Shown: one piece after another, positions 38,933 through 47,748 of the stretch
Position numbering within the stretch: position 1 is the stretch's first letter
Layout of the letters: each line of letters starts with the position of its first letter
IMG/VR virus record: IMGVR_UViG_3300030108_002488
Coordinates: 1-64,000 of that record
Reading direction: 5' to 3' (one strand)
Length of the DNA stretch: 64,000 nt
Origin: an uncultured virus (IMG/VR IMGVR_UViG_3300030108_002488)
Taxonomy: Duplodnaviria > Heunggongvirae > Uroviricota > Caudoviricetes
Notes under the pieces: model-generated
What the model was told of the DNA's origin: nothing
The model's database searches: none
The model's input: only the letters and a program-made list of their open reading frames with translations
Position numbers and translations under genes: made by a program

Positions 38933-39448
38933 ATGAAAGTTAGATTTGGTAAAAGACAATTAAAAACTATAAGGGCTGGTATTAAGCATCTAAATAATCA
39001 TGCACTTGACATCTTTGAGGCTCAATTTAATGAGAACGAAGATGAAAGTGGTGAATGGTTACCGATTGAAGGATGGCCCGCTTCCCTTACACCTAAAGTT
39101 CATGAAAATCTTCATGAAGCACTTGGTTTACTTCAAGGTGCATTTGCTGTGCAAAGTGAGGAAGACGATTATTTAAAGAAACAGAATGGTAAACCGAATG
39201 TTACTCTTGATACTTCAATTTTCAAAACAGATGTTATGCGTTGTGCTGCTCGTTGGCTCTTAGTTGATAGTGTTGATTTAAATTTAGGAGAGCATAATGA
39301 AGTGGGTTACGATATAGAATATAGAGACCATATGAGATTCAGAGAAAAACTTGAAAATAAAGTTGATGATATTGATTGGGGATTTGACGTAGACTACAGA
39401 TGTGGCTTTTTCTGCTGCTCAGAGGAGAGTGATGTTATTTGCTACTAA
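38933..39448 (+). CDS. Hypothetical acidic protein
   Basis: 171 aa ORF with RBS. Confidence 0.55.
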   Translation: MKVRFGKRQLKTIRAGIKHLNNHALDIFEAQFNENEDESGEWLPIEGWPASLTPKVHENLHEALGLLQGAFAVQSEEDDYLKKQNGKPNVTLDTSIFKTDVMRCAARWLLVDSVDLNLGEHNEVGYDIEYRDHMRFREKLENKVDDIDWGFDVDYRCGFFCCSEESDVICY

Positions 39449-40383
39449 ATGCAGAAGTACATTGTATAGAGGATATTGCTGGACAATCAGCATTTAAGAA
39501 AGATGCTATTGGTTGGAGAGAAGATGGTAAATATCCCGATGCTATTTTATTATATGGCCCCCCGGGAACTGGTAAGACTACAAGTGCTCATGTGATAGCA
39601 AGAGAACTACTTGGTGAATTTTACGACCCTATCAATTACATAGTCACGAATGCTAGTGACGATAGAGGTATTGATTTCATACGTAAAGACTTGAAACAGT
39701 GGAGTAAAGTTAGAGCCATTGGTGCTGACCGTAGAGTAATCATAATGGATGAGGCCGATGGTCTTACTCCTGCGGCTCAAGATGCGGCTAGACAAATTAT
39801 AGAAACTAATGCTGACACTACATTGTTTATCCTCACTGCTAATGATGTGAGTAAGATACGCCCTGCTATCAAGAGTAGGTGTGTATGTTATGAGTTCACT
39901 AAGATTTCAAATGAAGATGGTGCTAATCGACTCATGGATATTTTCCATCCACTATATGAATCTCGTGGACATAACACCGCTCGGAGAGATTCTTACATGA
40001 AACTAATGCAACATGTAGGTGGAGACCTACGTAGTGCAATAGCCATCGCTGAATTACATGATGAACCCGAAGAATTACTTTCTAAACTAAGTGACGAAGG
40101 TAATGGTAGTAAGACCGCTCTTGCGGCCATCAGTGGTGAGTATGGAGACATGCGTAAACAATTTTATTCGATGCTTGATAGAGGTATGAGTCTTACCTTT
40201 GTCATGAAAACATTTCACGAGAACCTAACCGAGTTCTTTGAGATGGATACAGATACAACATGGACAATCATGAGTGTACTAGGTGAAATGATACCTAACA
40301 TGTATGAATGGCCTATCGGTTCATATTCCTTTATAGATTGCTTTGTAGCGAGACTAAAAAAGGAGGTAGAAAAAAATGATTGA
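39439..40383 (+). CDS. rfcS: Replication factor C small subunit (clamp loader)
   Basis: GPPGTGKTT, NASDDRGID, DEAD, SRC, GDLR motifs. Confidence 0.92.
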   Translation: MLLNAEVHCIEDIAGQSAFKKDAIGWREDGKYPDAILLYGPPGTGKTTSAHVIARELLGEFYDPINYIVTNASDDRGIDFIRKDLKQWSKVRAIGADRRVIIMDEADGLTPAAQDAARQIIETNADTTLFILTANDVSKIRPAIKSRCVCYEFTKISNEDGANRLMDIFHPLYESRGHNTARRDSYMKLMQHVGGDLRSAIAIAELHDEPEELLSKLSDEGNGSKTALAAISGEYGDMRKQFYSMLDRGMSLTFVMKTFHENLTEFFEMDTDTTWTIMSVLGEMIPNMYEWPIGSYSFIDCFVARLKKEVEKND

Positions 40384-42813: not shown

Positions 42814-43569
42814 ATGGCTGAAATTAATATAAATAAAATACAATTAGTTGATTTCCTTACATCTTTTGGTAAGGATATAGAGGATGTGAAACTAGAAGCA
42901 AATTTAAACAACACTATTACAGTTGAGATTGCATTCATATCACATTATGTACGTAAGGTATTGTCTATCAACGGTAAAGTGACTAAAGCGGGTGTCATAG
43001 AAATAAGTGACTTACCCAAAGTCATACGATTTATTAAGGCAACTAATAGTGATACTATTAAATTAAAACAAACAGCATCAGGTAAAACACTCTACGTGAG
43101 CGCTGATGCATCAAAGTTGCAGATACCTTCTAGTAATACGATAGTGAGTTACTCCAAAGTGCCTATGATATCTAGGTTGATAGAAAAAGCAGAAGAGTCT
43201 AAGTGGACTATGTTTCACAAATCTGAACTATCTGTAACAGGCACTATTAATCTCACAGATTTAGATATAGTGAGTAAAATGCGTACAGTATTAGATTCAA
43301 ACCCTGTGTTTAAAATTGTAGCACATGCGGGTGAGAATGAGTTTAGCATCACGACTGGTAAGAAACATGGAGTGAAGTTATTCACTAGCACAGAATTGAA
43401 AGATGCAGATGGGCCTAATGTTTTGATAGAATCCACATTCGGACCTTGGTTGATGGAAACTATGGGTATACTGGATGATGGAGATGCAACAATACATTTC
43501 GGGGATTCTACAGTACTGGTTATAAAGCAACATCAAAATATGTTAATCGTTATAGACCAAAGAGCGTGA
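42814..43569 (+). CDS. Probable PCNA-like sliding clamp
   Basis: 251 aa with two-fold alpha/beta periodicity, directly upstream of PolB in a virus with RFC and PIP-box peptides. Confidence 0.55.
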   Translation: MAEININKIQLVDFLTSFGKDIEDVKLEANLNNTITVEIAFISHYVRKVLSINGKVTKAGVIEISDLPKVIRFIKATNSDTIKLKQTASGKTLYVSADASKLQIPSSNTIVSYSKVPMISRLIEKAEESKWTMFHKSELSVTGTINLTDLDIVSKMRTVLDSNPVFKIVAHAGENEFSITTGKKHGVKLFTSTELKDADGPNVLIESTFGPWLMETMGILDDGDATIHFGDSTVLVIKQHQNMLIVIDQRA

Positions 43570-43573
43570 TTGA

Positions 43574-45964
43574 ATGATTATAGATTGGTTTTATGATGAT
43601 GATGATTTTACCATTCCTAAGTTGTACGAGAGAACTCGTGACAAAGATGGAGTATTACATGAGCGTATCATATCAGAATCTGACGATGGGTACATGAGAC
43701 CTTTCTGTTGGATTCCTGAAAACACATCATCATGGAAAATACAAAGACTAAGTAATCGTTTTCCTAGTGCTAAAATACGTTGGGACGAGACATCTATAGG
43801 ATTGGATAAAGAGAAGTTAGTAAAACTAGAAGTTAGTAATCCTACAGACTTATGGGATATCAAAGACGAAATAAAAACTTATGAGGCAGATTTAGTTTAT
43901 GTAGACCAATATTTACTTTCTCAATATCCTGACAAAGTTCCTGACTTCCATCCTCGTATATGGTATTTCGATTTAGAATGGGATGTAGAAGATGGTTTTA
44001 CTACTGTGATGGCTGTCTCTGATACACATAACGAGCACAACGTGGTATTTGCTTGGAAAGAGGGTAAAGACCTAATGAGTTCAAAATGGGTGGACAGAGA
44101 GGGTGGTTATATGCTACATGAATTTTGTAGTGAGGAGGCTATGCACGAGGCTTTTATTCAACACTTGGATGTGTGTAATCCTGACATATTGGTGGCTCAT
44201 GCTATCATGTGGGCTGATTTACCACATCTCATAGAGCGTTTATCCGACCCTAATAGGTTGTCACCCATTAATCAAGTTACTAAACCGTTCAAAAATAAAA
44301 GAGGCTACAAAGACACTGCTCAACCGATTAAAGGTAGGTTGTGTTGGGATTCATCAGCACAACATAAACATGGTAGTGGTTTCGAAACTATTTGGCAGAT
44401 GTCAGGACGTGGTCAACTACCTAATCGTAAACTAAACACTATTGCTGAACAATTAGGACTAGGTAGTAAATTAACAGAGGAGATAGAGGGAATGACTGTA
44501 TACAATGGTTGGAGAGATTATTATGATTCATTCGTAGATTATTGTTTACGTGACACTACTCTGTTAAGAGATATAGATGAGAAATTAAATGCAACATCTT
44601 TCTTCATTGCTATGCAGCAACTCTGTGGTGTATCGTTTGGTAGCACACATAAGGTTACTAGATACTTTCGTGGACTGGTAGGTAGAAGAACAGAGATGAA
44701 AGCATTGAGCGCTAAGAACGTAAAAAGAGAAGCGCTTACTGCCGCTCATATCCCCGACCCCATTGGTGGTAGACACGAGGGTGTAGCGGTAGTGGATTAT
44801 GCATCTCTATATCCCAACATCATACTCAGTGATAATCTATGTCATACCACTAAAAGAGATAGTGGAGGAGAAGGGATTAAAACACTCGGTAATGGCACAC
44901 ATTGGTGTCAAAAAGAAAAAGGACTTCTACCTAAAATTGTAGAAGAAATGCTATCATTACGTAAAGAGTATAAACTAAAAATGAAAGAGGCCAAGAGTGC
45001 AGATGAAAAACTAAGTTATGATATGTTACAATCAGCAACTAAAGTGGCTGTAAACGCAATTTATGGTATGACGGGAATGAAATCTTTAGTGGGAATGTGG
45101 ATAGATTTAGACATAGCATCCGCTATCACTTATCGTGGTAGAGAGGCGATTAGACATTTACTGACTGAGAGTGAATTGCAAGGATATCAGTCACTCTACG
45201 GTCACACAGATTCAGCGTTCATTAAAGTGCCATTTGATGAGGCCCATGCATTAGCAGAGCATCTTACTAAGACTGCTCGTGATAAACTAAAATTATCGGC
45301 TATGGACGTAGAACTAGAGGCTTACTTTGATTATTGGACTACTGCTCCTATTAAGAATAGATACTTCGGGATTAAGGTGTGGCCTGAATCAGATGCTGGT
45401 ACTTTGAAAGTAGCGGGGTACGAAATGAAAGCATCCACCTCTGCTAAAATCACTAAAAGATTACAGAGTACCGCTATGCAGTTAGTGGGCACTGGTAAAA
45501 ATGAAGAAGAAGTCACCACTGAGTTACGTAAAATGTCTACTCCTGTTAGAGATGGATTGGCAGACATTAACGATGTAGTATGCTCTACACGCATATCCAT
45601 GCCTTTCAAGGATTACACATCACCTACCGCAGGTGTAAAAGCGGCTTTATATTATAATCAACAAATTGCTAAACATGAGAGTGATATGTGGAAGCAAGGA
45701 GATAGTGTCTCTTGGGTCTATGTGAAAGGAGTTAAGACGGACAAAGTAGACTATGTGAAGATAGGAGATAAACAAGAGAAAATTAGATTCGTGGCGTTTA
45801 GAGAAAAGGAAGAACTAGACGACTTCGTTATAGACTGGGGTAAGATAACAGACACCTTAGTCAAGAAAAAATTAATGCGTATTTATGAGAGCGTAGGTTG
45901 GGACGTGAATCCTGCCGCAGGTGCAATAGTACCTAAATCATATTTCGAGGAGGAAATAAAATGA
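43574..45964 (+). CDS. polB: Family B DNA polymerase
   Basis: Exonuclease FDLE and YCLRD; polymerase DYASLYP, KVAVNAIYG, YGHTDS. Confidence 0.95.
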   Translation: MIIDWFYDDDDFTIPKLYERTRDKDGVLHERIISESDDGYMRPFCWIPENTSSWKIQRLSNRFPSAKIRWDETSIGLDKEKLVKLEVSNPTDLWDIKDEIKTYEADLVYVDQYLLSQYPDKVPDFHPRIWYFDLEWDVEDGFTTVMAVSDTHNEHNVVFAWKEGKDLMSSKWVDREGGYMLHEFCSEEAMHEAFIQHLDVCNPDILVAHAIMWADLPHLIERLSDPNRLSPINQVTKPFKNKRGYKDTAQPIKGRLCWDSSAQHKHGSGFETIWQMSGRGQLPNRKLNTIAEQLGLGSKLTEEIEGMTVYNGWRDYYDSFVDYCLRDTTLLRDIDEKLNATSFFIAMQQLCGVSFGSTHKVTRYFRGLVGRRTEMKALSAKNVKREALTAAHIPDPIGGRHEGVAVVDYASLYPNIILSDNLCHTTKRDSGGEGIKTLGNGTHWCQKEKGLLPKIVEEMLSLRKEYKLKMKEAKSADEKLSYDMLQSATKVAVNAIYGMTGMKSLVGMWIDLDIASAITYRGREAIRHLLTESELQGYQSLYGHTDSAFIKVPFDEAHALAEHLTKTARDKLKLSAMDVELEAYFDYWTTAPIKNRYFGIKVWPESDAGTLKVAGYEMKASTSAKITKRLQSTAMQLVGTGKNEEEVTTELRKMSTPVRDGLADINDVVCSTRISMPFKDYTSPTAGVKAALYYNQQIAKHESDMWKQGDSVSWVYVKGVKTDKVDYVKIGDKQEKIRFVAFREKEELDDFVIDWGKITDTLVKKKLMRIYESVGWDVNPAAGAIVPKSYFEEEIK

Positions 45965-46095
45965 CAAAGAAAAAGAAGAAAACAAGACAAACAACATTAG
46001 ACGAATTTGGTTTTGAATTTACAGAACCAAAGGGGAAGAGCAAACAAAAAACATTGAAAGACTACGGGTTAGTTATAGAAGGAGAGGAAGAGTAA
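45961..46095 (+). CDS. 44-aa micropeptide with two PIP-box-like motifs
   Basis: Manual translation MTKKKKKTRQTTLDEFGFEFTEPKGKSKQKTLKDYGLVIEGEEE; GAGGAGG RBS; ATGA overlap with the polB stop. Confidence 0.7.
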   Translation: MTKKKKKTRQTTLDEFGFEFTEPKGKSKQKTLKDYGLVIEGEEE

Positions 46096-46226
46096 TGGGT
46101 AAAAATTTAAACACCGTTATCTGTAAAGAGTGTGAAGAAAACTTATGCTACTATGGTGCTGAGATTTGTACACCCTGTTTAGACGAATTACTTTTCATGT
46201 ACACAGGGATTAAGGTGAAACCATGA
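46095..46226 (+). CDS. 43-aa Zn-finger micro-protein
   Basis: MGKNLNTVICKECEENLCYYGAEICTPCLDEL..., coupled on both sides. Confidence 0.5.
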   Translation: MGKNLNTVICKECEENLCYYGAEICTPCLDELLFMYTGIKVKP

Positions 46227-46411
46227 GTAGAATAGAAGATGAAGTATGTAAAAAGATTAAAGCACGCTCTGACGTAGGTAAACAGAAGTATGGAGTTACT
46301 ATGGAAGAAGAAGAACTTTCACGTCTAGCGTGGCTCATACATGCACAAGAAGAGGCGATGGACTTAGCAGTGTACCTACAGAAGTTGATTGAGATGGAGG
46401 GAGGAAAGTGA
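46223..46411 (+). CDS. Small conserved phage protein (all-alpha, possibly NTP-pyrophosphatase-like)
   Basis: RSDVGKQKYGVT...WLIHAQEEAMDLAVYL. Confidence 0.6.
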   Translation: MSRIEDEVCKKIKARSDVGKQKYGVTMEEEELSRLAWLIHAQEEAMDLAVYLQKLIEMEGGK

Positions 46412-46451: not shown

Positions 46452-47468
46452 GTGAGATTCAATCCTAACGATGAGAGAGAAAGCGTATATCCAAACGAAG
46501 AAATGAAGGAGTCTTACGAGAAGAGTTGTTACAATTGGCAGCCCACTATGGAAGATAAAATATTACGTGTAACTAAATCATCTTTAGGTACTTTTGAATT
46601 CTGCCCATTACAATATTATTATCAAAACGTTTTAGGTATACGTGGTGAACAAAAGGACTATCATATACGGGGTAGTAATATCCATGATGCTATAGAATGG
46701 TACTGGAAGGAAAGTAGAGATTATATGGATGGTGCTTTAAAATTATTAGAAAAAGGTGACAAAGAGTCTGCTAGAATGCAGTTGAGAAAAGCCATACCTG
46801 AACCACCCGAACCTTATGTTTACGGGGAGAAAGCACAGATATTGAAGTATACAGACTGGATGTTTGAAAGATTATTAAACATAGATGAGAGTGTTATAGA
46901 AGATTGGTATCCGATTGGTAATGAAGCAGAAATTCATGCCACTAGAACTGTCACAGCAAGCGATGGCACAGTTGTTCCAATACACATGAAAGGTTTCATA
47001 GATAGAATGTTTAGAGATGACGATGGTAAAGGAGTTGTACTAATGGAATTAAAGTCGGGTAAGTATACTAAATATAAACCAAAAGCCATGAGAGATGAAA
47101 TGCAATTCTATAGAATGATGTTAGAACATAGTTCGTACTTAGAATACACACCTGTTGTGGCTTGGGGATGGGCTTACCCCGGAGGAGGTATTAACGGTGG
47201 AGACGGGCCTAAATTTTTCTACGAAAGCGTTCATGGTAGAGGACCAACACTAGCGCCCAAAAGAGTTGAAAAGAACTTAGTCAAATTAGTAGACGCTCAT
47301 TTAAAAAATGAGTGGGATACCAAACACAATAAATCTTGTAGTGATTTTTGTAATCATGAAAAAATTTGTTTACCTTATTGTGACTTTGTAGATATGTGTC
47401 CCGCTTGGACAGGAGAGTGTTACGCTCCTGATTACACAATTTTTAAGGGGGGAGAAAATGACACCTAG
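46452..47468 (+). CDS. Cas4/RecB-like PD-(D/E)XK exonuclease
   Basis: CPLQYY, RGSNIH, GFIDR, ELKSG, QFY and a C-terminal Cys cluster (Fe-S). Confidence 0.85.
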   Translation: MRFNPNDERESVYPNEEMKESYEKSCYNWQPTMEDKILRVTKSSLGTFEFCPLQYYYQNVLGIRGEQKDYHIRGSNIHDAIEWYWKESRDYMDGALKLLEKGDKESARMQLRKAIPEPPEPYVYGEKAQILKYTDWMFERLLNIDESVIEDWYPIGNEAEIHATRTVTASDGTVVPIHMKGFIDRMFRDDDGKGVVLMELKSGKYTKYKPKAMRDEMQFYRMMLEHSSYLEYTPVVAWGWAYPGGGINGGDGPKFFYESVHGRGPTLAPKRVEKNLVKLVDAHLKNEWDTKHNKSCSDFCNHEKICLPYCDFVDMCPAWTGECYAPDYTIFKGGENDT

Positions 47469-47748
47469 TGGTTTACACACAGTTAGAGTGTTATTCAACG
47501 CTGCTATTAAATTAATCCACCCTGATTTAAGAGTGGAGATAGACACAGCATTAATTGAAAAAGACATAATGTATACTCCTTTTAGAGAGAGAACACATGG
47601 TGAATTTGATAATCTAGTGGGGGAGCGTTCTTCGGGATTACCGTTTGTACAAATTGTAATGCACCCTAGAATGTTAAAACTACAAAGGGTAGAGCAGACT
47701 CTTAAAGAAGTAGTTAAAAAATTAAATGACTATGTGGAGTGGAAATAA
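47458..47748 (+). CDS. Hypothetical protein
   Basis: 96 aa ORF. Confidence 0.5.
   Translation: MTPSGLHTVRVLFNAAIKLIHPDLRVEIDTALIEKDIMYTPFRERTHGEFDNLVGERSSGLPFVQIVMHPRMLKLQRVEQTLKEVVKKLNDYVEWK

What the first reader, a model, noticed from the sequence alone, without database searches (positions are those of the whole stretch)
45961..46095. Unannotated 44-aa micropeptide made of two PIP boxes, coupled to the polB stop
Seen: KKKTR-QTTLDEF and KGKSK-QKTLKDY. PolB itself ends in PKSYFEEEIK with no canonical QxxLxxF. Established: archaeal PolB normally binds PCNA through a C-terminal PIP box. Inference: either a detached bivalent clamp adaptor, an inhibitor that occupies host PCNA, or a PolB tail added by -1 frameshifting (the ORF is in the -1 frame at ATAAAATGA).
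Basis: partly seen in the sequence, partly recalled or inferred. Interest (0 to 1): 0.75.

Follow-up and report, generated by a model that had tools for sequence, protein, structure and literature searches.

The report
Viral micropeptide made of clamp-binding motifs
A marine archaeal virus encodes, right after its DNA polymerase gene, a real 44-residue protein that is little more than two copies of the short motif by which replication proteins grip the sliding clamp, and dozens of related viruses carry similar tiny genes, which suggests a viral way of jamming or steering a clamp.

Summary
The ORF 45961..46095 (+) exists as described. It encodes two PIP-box-like motifs, QTTLDEFGF and QKTLKDYGL; the pattern occurs 2 times in the window against 0.00 expected. 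The window is magrovirus-like and carries its own clamp loader, sliding clamp and PolB.

The ORF is a gene of its own, not a PolB tail:
- Every relative keeps a Shine-Dalgarno site plus ATG.
- Its frame relative to polB takes all three values.
- No PolB fusion was found.

It belongs to a widespread, undescribed family of 17-69-aa marine viral peptides with 1-3 motif copies. Some members are nothing but motifs.

The same motif sits in a disordered loop of a conserved 96-aa protein (p96) in every polB-retrieved relative that lacks the micropeptide. It has decayed there in most relatives that have one. The motif's function therefore looks independent of its carrier.

The motif resembles the C-terminal PIP of host-order FEN1 (GQTSLFDF).

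Best reading: a free ligand of the clamp's PIP pocket that acts by occupancy, most likely on host PCNA (0.4). The main rival is action on the viral clamp (0.3). Binding is untested; the one complex prediction gave no verdict.

The parts
45961..46095 (+). micro-ORF, 44 aa, two PIP-like motifs; the stop TAA overlaps the ATG of the next gene by one base (TAATG)
   Evidence: conserved in 10 of 30 polB-retrieved loci; 35 database clusters
45947..45953 (+). Shine-Dalgarno-like GAGGAGG, 7 nt upstream of the ATG, inside the polB 3' end
   Evidence: all relatives have GAGGTGA/GAGGAGG 5-9 nt upstream of their ATG
45988..46014 (+). motif 1, QTTLDEFGF (residues 10-18), preceded by a basic run KKKKKTR
46045..46071 (+). 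motif 2, QKTLKDYGL (residues 29-37), preceded by KGKSK
43574..45964 (+). family B DNA polymerase; tail PKSYFEEEIK, no canonical PIP
   Evidence: Pfam PF00136 4.8e-41; phrog_262 5.5e-73; tails of relatives
42814..43569 (+). virus-encoded sliding clamp (two-domain, PCNA-like), no Pfam match
   Evidence: AF2 pLDDT 86; Foldseek PDB: beta clamps and P. furiosus PCNA 1iz5_A E 2.1e-12, TMq 0.60
39439..40383 (+). clamp-loader-like AAA+ ATPase (RFC small-subunit type)
   Evidence: Pfam AAA 1.1e-14, DNA_pol3_delta2 4e-13
47458..47748 (+). p96, a conserved small protein between nuclease and primase. It is the alternative carrier of the motif in relatives; here the motif is degenerate (ERTHGEF at 47587..47607).
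   Evidence: fold alpha-beta-beta-loop-beta-alpha with the motif column in the low-confidence loop
46095..46226 (+). next gene, 43-aa CxxC...CxxC protein, start coupled to the micro-ORF stop
46223..46411 (+). p62, a conserved small protein (phrog_11184). In two relatives (L054, L076) it carries the motif at its own C-terminus.

Best explanation
The ORF is a separately translated 44-aa protein of a magrovirus-like archaeal virus. It is one member of a large family of viral micropeptides that consist of one to three copies of a PIP-box-type short linear motif, [RK]-Q-T-[TK]-L-x-[DE]-[FWY]-G-hydrophobic-x-hydrophobic-[DE].

Proposed mechanism (inferred):
1. Each motif inserts into the hydrophobic PIP pocket of a PCNA-type sliding clamp.
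2. The peptide brings no enzymatic or adaptor domain, so it acts purely by occupancy and competes with PIP-dependent partners such as FEN1 and polymerases.
3. The most likely target is the PCNA of the Poseidoniales host. That would shut down host replication and repair.
4. Meanwhile the virus replicates with its own divergent clamp, its own clamp loader, and a PolB whose tail is not a canonical PIP.

Shown: the gene is real, conserved and under protein-level constraint; the motif is reused on different carriers; it resembles the host FEN1 PIP.
Inferred: binding to a clamp, the choice of host clamp, and inhibition.
For: Gene reality:
- SD plus ATG are present in the window and in all 10 loci with the ORF.
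- ATGA/TAATG overlaps couple it to both neighbouring genes.
- Close pairs differ mostly by synonymous codons: window/L001 2 synonymous to 0 non-synonymous, L002/L011 3:0, L003/L011 4:1.
- The word-indexed search found 35 clusters at E<=0.01.
- The profile search found 54 representatives at E<=0.001 among 1.84 billion, but these include at least 6 long DUF7487 repeat proteins and the repeat artefact P0048.
- The motif pattern hits 90 viral-contig loci; my own estimate of the chance expectation is about 6.

Motif identity:
- It matches Qxx[LIM]xx[FYW] and has a basic run before the Q. The published archaeal consensus PIP peptide is KTTQSTLDSFFK (PMC4929162, text read).

Carrier independence:
- Minimal members are motifs and nothing else: P0030 30 aa, P0031 33 aa, and 17-23-aa single-motif ORFs.
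- The same motif also sits in the p96 loop, at the C-terminus of p62 (L054, L076), and in 83-aa CCxCG proteins.
- Among the 29 polB-retrieved loci that cover both positions, none lacks a carrier: 20 have only the p96 motif, 7 only the micropeptide, 2 both.
- Across all micropeptide or polB-proximal carriers, p96 has lost the motif in 16 of 20.
- On the PolB tree the 10 micropeptide rows form one clade (support 93/97), and within it the p96 motif is degenerate in two subclades and weakened in a third.

Host leaning:
- FEN1 of 25 of 27 host-order genomes with a complete C-terminus ends in Q-x-x-L-x-x-F; 15 of them read QTSL.
- The viral clamp is too divergent for Pfam.
- PolB tails are P-x-x-[YH]-[FWI], not PIP.
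- No other protein of this 74.8-kb contig has a terminal PIP-like motif.

Precedent:
- The p21 PIP peptide blocks PCNA partners, and TIP is a 64-aa archaeal PCNA inhibitor (PMC6204406 passages; PMC4929162).
- Phage Twort Gp168 blocks the host beta clamp (PMC8565349 abstract).
Against: - No binding evidence of any kind exists.
- Position 8 is an invariant Gly, not an aromatic residue, so the motif is non-canonical.
- A carrier of the motif is present in every genome examined. That fits a core replication role better than an accessory anti-host role.
- In another virus group (L064 type), a 278-aa protein just upstream of the RFC-like gene ends in a canonical C-terminal PIP, KKKDKQIGLDNWM. This suggests viral clamps may themselves read PIP motifs, so the micropeptide could act on the viral clamp.
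- The host assignment rests on literature about magroviruses and on resemblance to that description, not on a test here.
- The Q-to-Q spacing of 13-19 residues seems too short to reach two pockets of one ring. This rests on my recalled geometry, so the reason for tandem copies is unexplained.
Confidence: 0.4

Rival explanations
1. The peptide binds the virus's own sliding clamp and is a core accessory of the viral replisome. It might regulate polymerase exchange, stabilise or open the ring, or shield the pocket from host factors.
For: - A motif carrier is present in 29 of 29 polB-retrieved loci that cover both positions.
- All carriers sit inside the replication module, next to clamp, PolB, nuclease and primase.
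- The L064-type viruses have a 278-aa protein beside RFC with a canonical C-terminal PIP, as archaeal RFC-L has. PDB 1isq, 'PCNA complexed with RFCL PIP-box peptide', is listed.
Against: - A domain-less peptide cannot tether anything, and occupying one's own clamp would compete with the viral PolB.
- The viral PolB tail is not a PIP.
- The 278-aa protein has no Pfam match and no homologue in this contig.
- The motif resembles host FEN1 (QTSL) more than that protein's QIGL.
Confidence: 0.3
2. The motif is not a clamp ligand. It binds another hub such as primase, p96, p62 or SSB, or it is a small structural or DNA-binding repeat related to the DUF7487 repeats.
For: - The micropeptide profile hits long proteins with 3-9 tandem RQTxLE[KR]YGV repeats.
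- 6 of 6 of those tested are Pfam DUF7487. They share the core Q-T-x-L-x-x-Y-G-hydrophobic, including the Gly that departs from the PIP consensus.
- A 142-aa family carries two motifs N-terminal to a lipobox-like hydrophobic segment, an odd place for a clamp motif.
Against: - 0 of 19 micropeptides match DUF7487 at E<=10.
- DUF7487 repeats have a 22-residue period with flanks (P-x-Q-x-E-E-I-K) that are absent here.
- Peptides of 17-23 aa cannot fold into a domain.
- In p96 the motif column lies in the low-confidence loop, as expected of a linear motif.
- The genomic context is clamp and polymerase.
Confidence: 0.15
3. The ORF is added to PolB by programmed -1 slippage at A_AAA_TGA, or by readthrough in relatives, giving PolB a PIP tail.
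For: - In the window, a single-tRNA slip on A_AAA next to the stop would join ...EEEIK to MTKK.
- In 5 relatives the ORF is in the polB frame, separated by one stop and three or four sense codons.
Against: - The frame relation is 0, +1 or -1 in different relatives, and L008/L009 have a second stop in the polB frame before the ORF.
- SD plus ATG are conserved everywhere.
- There is no heptamer and no structure 5-9 nt downstream.
- Micropeptides also occur far from polB, as in the L064 type.
- No PolB-motif fusion appeared among 12 longer hits from 4172 candidates (weak evidence).
Confidence: 0.03
4. The ORF is spurious: an untranslated spacer whose sequence is constrained by ribosome-binding sites for the neighbouring genes.
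For: The last residues (GEEE) are encoded by the SD of the next gene, so part of the conservation is at the nucleotide level.
Against: - The motif is conserved at the protein level, with synonymous differences between copies and between relatives.
- It recurs in different genomic positions and inside larger proteins.
Confidence: 0.02

Closest known systems
C-terminal PIP peptide of p21(Cip1)
   Same: A short basic-Q-x-x-[LM]-x-x-aromatic motif followed by residues that can form a strand. As a free peptide it blocks other partners from PCNA (PMC6204406 passages).
   Different: p21 is a eukaryotic cell-cycle protein with a CDK-binding domain. Here the whole gene product is one to three motifs, it is virus-encoded, position 8 is Gly, and no homology is implied.
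TIP (Thermococcales inhibitor of PCNA), 64 aa
   Same: A small archaeal protein with a (non-canonical) PIP followed by an amphipathic helix. It inhibits PCNA stimulation of PolB and FEN1 (PMC4929162; PMC6204406). Longer relatives of the micropeptide also have motif plus a helix-like KLQKMM/KLKNLL segment.
   Different: TIP is cellular, restricted to Thermococcales, single-motif and has a PH-like part. The profile search against PDB sequences gave only one unrelated hit at E 0.29, although a 'monomeric PCNA bound to a small protein inhibitor' entry (5da7) is in the PDB. The window's peptide lacks the helix.
Phage-encoded sliding-clamp inhibitors (Twort Gp168)
   Same: A small viral protein that targets the host clamp to stop host DNA synthesis during takeover (PMC8565349 abstract).
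   Different: Gp168 targets the bacterial beta clamp and plugs the DNA channel as a folded dimer. It does not mimic a linear motif.
C-terminal PIP tails of archaeal replication proteins (FEN1, RFC-L, PolB)
   Same: The same motif class. Host-order FEN1 ends GQTSLF[DS]F.
   Different: Those motifs tether an enzyme. Here the motif stands alone or rides on unrelated small proteins.
Pfam DUF7487 repeats
   Same: Shared core R-Q-T-x-L-E-x-Y-G-V.
   Different: DUF7487 has 22-residue tandem repeats in 230-780-aa nuclease-associated proteins. The micropeptides do not match the Pfam model (0 of 19).

Membership tests
PIP box (PCNA-interacting peptide, QxxhxxAA) | Gln at position 1 | tested here: met
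   Q10 and Q29. Q10 is invariant and Q29 nearly invariant (90% or more) across 19 aligned family members.
PIP box (PCNA-interacting peptide, QxxhxxAA) | Leu/Ile/Met at position 4 | tested here: met
   L13 and L32, both invariant.
PIP box (PCNA-interacting peptide, QxxhxxAA) | aromatic residue at position 7 | tested here: met
   F16 and Y35. F, Y or W in relatives.
PIP box (PCNA-interacting peptide, QxxhxxAA) | second aromatic residue at position 8 | tested here: not met
   Gly at position 8 in both motifs (G17, G36), conserved in the family. A hydrophobic residue follows at position 9.
PIP box (PCNA-interacting peptide, QxxhxxAA) | located in a terminal or disordered segment | tested here: met
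   The whole peptide is motif plus linkers. In p96 the motif column lies in the loop at residues 41-60, with block pLDDT 56-64.
PIP box (PCNA-interacting peptide, QxxhxxAA) | physical binding to the PIP pocket of PCNA | not testable with these tools
   Requires a binding assay or a structure.
Small-protein PCNA inhibitors (p21 peptide / TIP type) | inhibits PCNA-partner interactions | not testable with these tools
   Biochemical assay needed.
Small-protein PCNA inhibitors (p21 peptide / TIP type) | sequence homology to TIP | tested here: not met
   The micropeptide profile against PDB sequences gave only one unrelated hit, E 0.29.
Programmed -1 ribosomal frameshift site | slippery heptamer X_XXY_YYZ in the upstream frame | tested here: not met
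   Only A_AAA_TGA is present.
Programmed -1 ribosomal frameshift site | stimulatory RNA structure 5-9 nt downstream | tested here: not met
   The only hairpin lies at about 46006-46031, roughly 45 nt downstream.
Programmed -1 ribosomal frameshift site | frame relation conserved in relatives | tested here: not met
   Frames 0, +1 and -1 all occur.
Pfam DUF7487 repeat | match to the family model | tested here: not met
   0 of 19 micropeptides matched at E<=10.
Magrovirus (order Magrovirales) replication module | PolB, sliding clamp, RFC-like loader, archaeo-eukaryotic primase, nucleases, chaperonin, and SNF2 / HMG-CoA lyase accessories | tested here: met
   Searches compared with the descriptions in PMC5434244 (passages) and PMC10768690 (whole text). 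No named magrovirus record was available for direct comparison; the best hits in the phage collection are haloviruses at 23% identity.

The most novel reading that the evidence does not exclude
Magroviruses universally deploy a carrier-independent, free-standing PIP peptide as a 'clamp jammer' of host PCNA. It can be as small as 17 residues and occurs in one to three tandem copies. This would be a viral counterpart of the p21 peptide and the smallest virus-encoded replication inhibitor described. The motif has hopped between at least four carriers (p96 loop, p62 tail, CCxCG protein, free micro-ORF), while selection kept at least one copy per genome.
Probability: 0.35. Interest if true: 0.8.

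Novelty: new variant of a known kind. Interest (0 to 1): 0.62.

Why it matters
PIP boxes are known as tethers on enzymes. A gene whose entire product is one to three PIP-like motifs, conserved across many abundant ocean viruses, would show that viruses use the bare motif as a tool.

- If it blocks host PCNA, it is a simple host-shutoff mechanism for viruses of uncultivated Poseidoniales, among the most abundant marine archaea. It would also be a natural high-affinity PCNA ligand.
- If it acts on the viral clamp, it points to an unknown step in clamp handling.

Either way, it shows that 17-44-aa ORFs usually skipped by gene callers can be core parts of viral replication modules.

I found no description in print. 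The full-text searches 'magrovirus'+'PCNA' (1 paper, the ICTV profile), 'PIP-box'+'archaeal virus'+'PCNA' (1 unrelated paper) and 'PIP box'+'viral protein'+'host PCNA'+'inhibit' (0 papers) found none. Supplements of the magrovirus papers were not read.

Tried and rejected
- Complex prediction of the viral clamp (alignment A1) with the micropeptide (alignment A3): 'no answer', score 0.00 against a mark of 0.32, controls not run. This counts neither for nor against binding.
- The search for related loci on genome contigs with A3, then with the 44-aa peptide: both returned errors, the first for no conserved stretch and the second for a query too short. I used a degenerate DNA pattern instead.
- Genome contigs pattern scan: 58 hits, about what I estimate for chance (about 59). 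Only L126, L169 and L152 carry the extended motif.
- Pfam and PHROGs gave nothing for the micropeptide.
- The clamp profile gave no significant hit against PDB sequences; the fold search was needed to identify it.
- p96 fold: Foldseek PDB gave nothing at E<=0.001. VIA-align's best hits were Z 6.3-5.8 to minimal zincin-like peptidases and Wss1. That is below the level the tool calls meaningful, and p96 has no HExxH, so it was not used.
- Host RNase HII tail (QQRLSL) was uninformative, the host PCNA fragment was cut by a contig end, and PolD DP2 was not found in the incomplete G001.
- Laid runs: a 177-nt contig of an RNA library covers 45913..46089 only. Contigs cannot show transcription, so this is at most a hint. 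Three DNA runs from other studies show no differences inside the ORF, but the expectation was only about 1.4.
- The phage collection holds no close relative (best PolB identity 23%).
- The notes of earlier scans held nothing for this genome.
Full report
**Observation.** The ORF is at 45961..46095 on the + strand and encodes MTKKKKKTRQTTLDEFGFEFTEPKGKSKQKTLKDYGLVIEGEEE.
- Its ATG overlaps the TGA of the upstream gene (ATGA).
- That upstream gene is a family B DNA polymerase (43574..45964; Pfam DNA_pol_B 4.8e-41; phrog_262 5.5e-73) ending PKSYFEEEIK.
- A GAGGAGG Shine-Dalgarno-like site lies 7 nt upstream of the ATG.
- The stop TAA overlaps the ATG of the next small gene (TAATG).
- A degenerate pattern for Q-[TK]-[TK]-L-x-[DE]-[FYW]-G matches the window twice, both in this ORF, against 0.00 expected in 100 shuffles.
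- The strict motif occurs nowhere else in six-frame translation of the whole 74.8-kb contig.

The one departure from the textbook PIP box (QxxhxxAA; PMC4929162) is Gly at position 8.

**Context.** The window is magrovirus-like. Around the ORF lie:
- an RFC-type AAA+ protein (39439..40383);
- a 251-aa protein that Pfam does not recognise, but whose model (pLDDT 86) matches sliding clamps, including P. furiosus PCNA (1iz5_A, E 2.1e-12, TMq 0.60);
- PolB;
- a PD-(D/E)XK nuclease, an archaeo-eukaryotic-type primase, an ERCC4/HhH nuclease, an exonuclease and a GroEL-like chaperonin.

Elsewhere in the window are an SNF2 helicase and an HMG-CoA-lyase-like gene. This matches the published description of magroviruses of Marine Group II (Poseidoniales) archaea (PMC5434244 passages; PMC10768690 whole text). 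No named magrovirus record was available for direct comparison; the best hits in the phage collection are haloviruses at 23% identity. The stretch occurs in marine metagenomes of 8 studies.

**Is it a gene or a PolB tail?** Thirty viral contigs encode a PolB 45-97% identical to this one. Ten of them have a motif-bearing micro-ORF directly after polB.
- All ten have GAGGTGA or GAGGAGG 5-9 nt before an ATG.
- Their stop overlaps the start of the next gene.
- The frame relative to polB is 0 in five, +1 in two, and -1 in three plus the window.
- Close pairs differ mainly by synonymous codons: 2:0, 3:0, 4:1, 1:1.
- The window has no X_XXY_YYZ heptamer, and the only hairpin lies about 45 nt downstream of the stop.
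- A search among longer proteins found no PolB fusion: 12 hits from 4172 candidates, all 142-153 aa (weak evidence).

I conclude that the ORF is translated on its own, probably coupled to polB termination. The terminal GEEE is at least partly dictated by the ribosome-binding site of the next gene.

**A family, not a singleton.**
- The profile of seven members finds 35 protein clusters of 30-86 aa in public metagenomes. None is named beyond 'hypothetical'.
- A full HMMER scan of 1.84 billion representatives finds 54 hits at E<=0.001. These include at least 6 long DUF7487 repeat proteins and one repeat artefact.
- A DNA pattern for QTTL[DE]E[FYW]G[FLMI] hits 90 viral-contig loci, against roughly 6 expected by my own estimate.
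- Translating those loci shows at least 40 distinct free ORFs of 17-69 aa with one or two motifs and SD-like sites upstream.
- Some members are only motifs, such as P0030, P0031 and MENSRQTTLEEFGFTFE. Some have three copies, such as P0033 and P0054.
- The unit is about [RK]QT[TK]Lx[DE][FWY]G-hydrophobic-x-hydrophobic-[DE].
- The motif is essentially viral. The exact pattern was found in 1 of 301 genomes of the host order that were searched. Only 3 of 58 hits across all prokaryotic species genomes carry the extended motif: two look like misbinned viral contigs, and one is a 2.2-kb contig of a Poseidoniales MAG.

**The motif changes carrier.** The same motif sits in several places:
- in the middle of a conserved ~100-aa protein between nuclease and primase, here called p96 (window 47458..47748);
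- at the C-terminus of the conserved p62 protein in L054 and L076;
- after a CCxCG knuckle in 83-aa proteins at the post-polB position (L049 type) or upstream of the clamp gene (L005, L010, L015 types);
- at the N-terminus of a 142-aa lipoprotein-like family.

The p96 model is alpha-beta-beta-loop-beta-alpha, with the motif column in the low-confidence loop. That is what one expects of a linear motif.

Complementarity, among the 29 polB-retrieved loci that cover both positions:

| Carrier state | Loci |
|---|---|
| p96 motif only | 20 |
| micropeptide only | 7 |
| both | 2 |
| neither | 0 |

- After adding loci retrieved through a polB-proximal motif, which is unbiased with respect to p96, and removing duplicate contigs, p96 has lost Q..[LIM]..[FYW] in 16 of 20 genomes that have a polB-proximal carrier. 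The window itself reads ERTHGEF there.
- On a PolB tree the ten micropeptide rows form one clade (support 93/97). Inside it the p96 motif is degenerate in two subclades, weakened in a third, and intact in L004 and L028.
- These counts are not phylogenetically independent.
- The pattern says two things. Selection keeps at least one copy of the motif per genome. It does not care which protein carries it, while the p96 domain itself is kept for another reason.

**What the motif most likely binds.**
- It fits the PIP consensus at positions 1, 4 and 7 and has the usual basic run before Q. The published archaeal consensus peptide is KTTQSTLDSFFK.
- In the host order, FEN1 was found in 29 of 31 genomes. 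27 of those loci have a complete C-terminus, and 25 of the 27 end in Q-x-x-L-x-x-F. The commonest form is GQTSLF[SD]F, and 15 read QTSL.
- The viral motif therefore shares Q, T, S/T, L, an acidic residue and F with the PIP that the host PCNA demonstrably has to read.
- The viral PolBs all end in P-x-x-[YH]-[FWI] (30 of 30; 27 exactly at the C-terminus), which is not a PIP.
- No other protein of this contig has a terminal PIP-like motif.

**Mechanism and rivals.** A product made only of clamp-binding motifs can only work by occupying something. The best-supported mechanism is competitive occupancy of the PIP pocket of a PCNA-type clamp. Known precedents are the p21 peptide and the 64-aa archaeal TIP, and in spirit phage Twort Gp168.
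- I favour host PCNA as the target (0.4). The virus has its own divergent clamp and a non-PIP polymerase tail, and the motif resembles the host FEN1 tail.
- The main rival is action on the viral clamp (0.3). It is supported by the presence of a carrier in every genome. It is also supported by a 278-aa protein next to the RFC gene of another virus group that ends in a canonical PIP, KQIGLDNWM. That protein has no Pfam match and no homologue here.
- A non-clamp role (0.15) is kept alive by the shared core with DUF7487 repeats and by the lipoprotein-like fusions. However, 0 of 19 micropeptides match DUF7487.
- Frameshift fusion (0.03) and a spurious ORF (0.02) are disfavoured.
- Why many members carry two or three copies is unexplained. 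The Q-to-Q spacing of 13-19 residues seems too short to bridge two pockets of one ring; this rests on my recollection of PCNA geometry, not on a test.

**Limits.**
- No binding was shown. The single complex prediction returned no verdict.
- The host assignment is taken from the literature.
- The chance expectations for the two collection scans are my own estimates.
- Supplements of the magrovirus papers were not read.

Noticed in passing
window 45947-45964 and 46081-46097; loci L002-L029: Many genes of this module end in EEE or GEEE (PolB ...FEEEIK, the micropeptide ...GEEE, several unrelated small ORFs in relatives). The codons GGAGAGGAAGAG / GAGGAGGAA double as the Shine-Dalgarno site of the overlapping next gene, so these acidic tails are partly a nucleotide-level constraint.
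   Followed up: partly
window 47458-47748 (p96); alignment A4: This small protein, conserved in all relatives, has an alpha-beta-beta-loop-beta-alpha model (pLDDT 82.5) and a conserved H/N/D-P motif after strand 3. Its only structural neighbours are minimal zincin-like peptidases and Wss1 at Z about 6, which is not significant, and it has no HExxH. Function unknown.
   Followed up: partly
P0036-P0047, P0059, P0074: A 99-153-aa family has two motif copies at the N-terminus that run straight into a hydrophobic segment ending in a lipobox-like LAGC, followed by an Asn/Thr-rich domain. It may be a membrane-anchored carrier of the motif, or a micro-ORF fused to a downstream lipoprotein gene.
   Followed up: no
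L054 and L076: The conserved p62 protein (window 46223-46411) carries the motif at its own C-terminus (...KQTTLDEFGLSME) in these two viral contigs.
   Followed up: partly
L064:1415-2251 and homologues in L031, L047, L075, L087, L101: A 278-aa protein immediately upstream of the RFC-like gene has a degenerate P-loop-like N-terminus and a canonical C-terminal PIP (KKKDKQIGLDNWM). It may be a clamp-loader large-subunit analogue. It has no Pfam match and no homologue in the window.
   Followed up: partly
L152 (= G001:C194), 84-293 +: A 60% G+C, 2.2-kb contig of a Poseidoniales MAG has a 69-aa ORF containing TRQTTLEEFGFEFD, next to a large acidic secreted-type protein. It is the only exact-pattern hit among 301 genomes of that order. 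Whether it is host-encoded or a binned viral fragment is unclear.
   Followed up: partly
L126 and L169: Contigs filed under bacterial MAGs (titles Parvibaculum sp. and Maricaulis sp.) carry typical micropeptides, and L169 also carries the 278-aa protein. They are probably magrovirus-like contigs placed in the wrong bin.
   Followed up: no
P0051, P0058, P0079 and others: Pfam DUF7487 proteins have 22-residue tandem repeats with the core RQTxLE[KR]YGV, which matches Qxx[L]xxY-G just like the viral motif. Whether this is convergence or distant kinship was not resolved.
   Followed up: partly
G000 contig 60362-74719, minus strand: A single ORF of 4785 aa runs off the window's right-hand part to near the end of the contig. 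It was not examined.
   Followed up: no
window 45913-46089: In one metatranscriptome library, the only good contig on the 1.1-kb stretch is a 177-nt piece (depth 30.8) that covers just the polB end and the micro-ORF. Contigs cannot show transcript ends, so this is no more than a hint.
   Followed up: no
PolB C-termini, L001-L030: All 30 related PolBs have P-x-x-[YH]-[FWI] at or near the C-terminus. Only the window/L001 (+EEEIK) and L004 (+EVD) extend beyond it, and in these the micro-ORF start sits on the polB end. The tail may be the polymerase's own, non-PIP, clamp contact.
   Followed up: no
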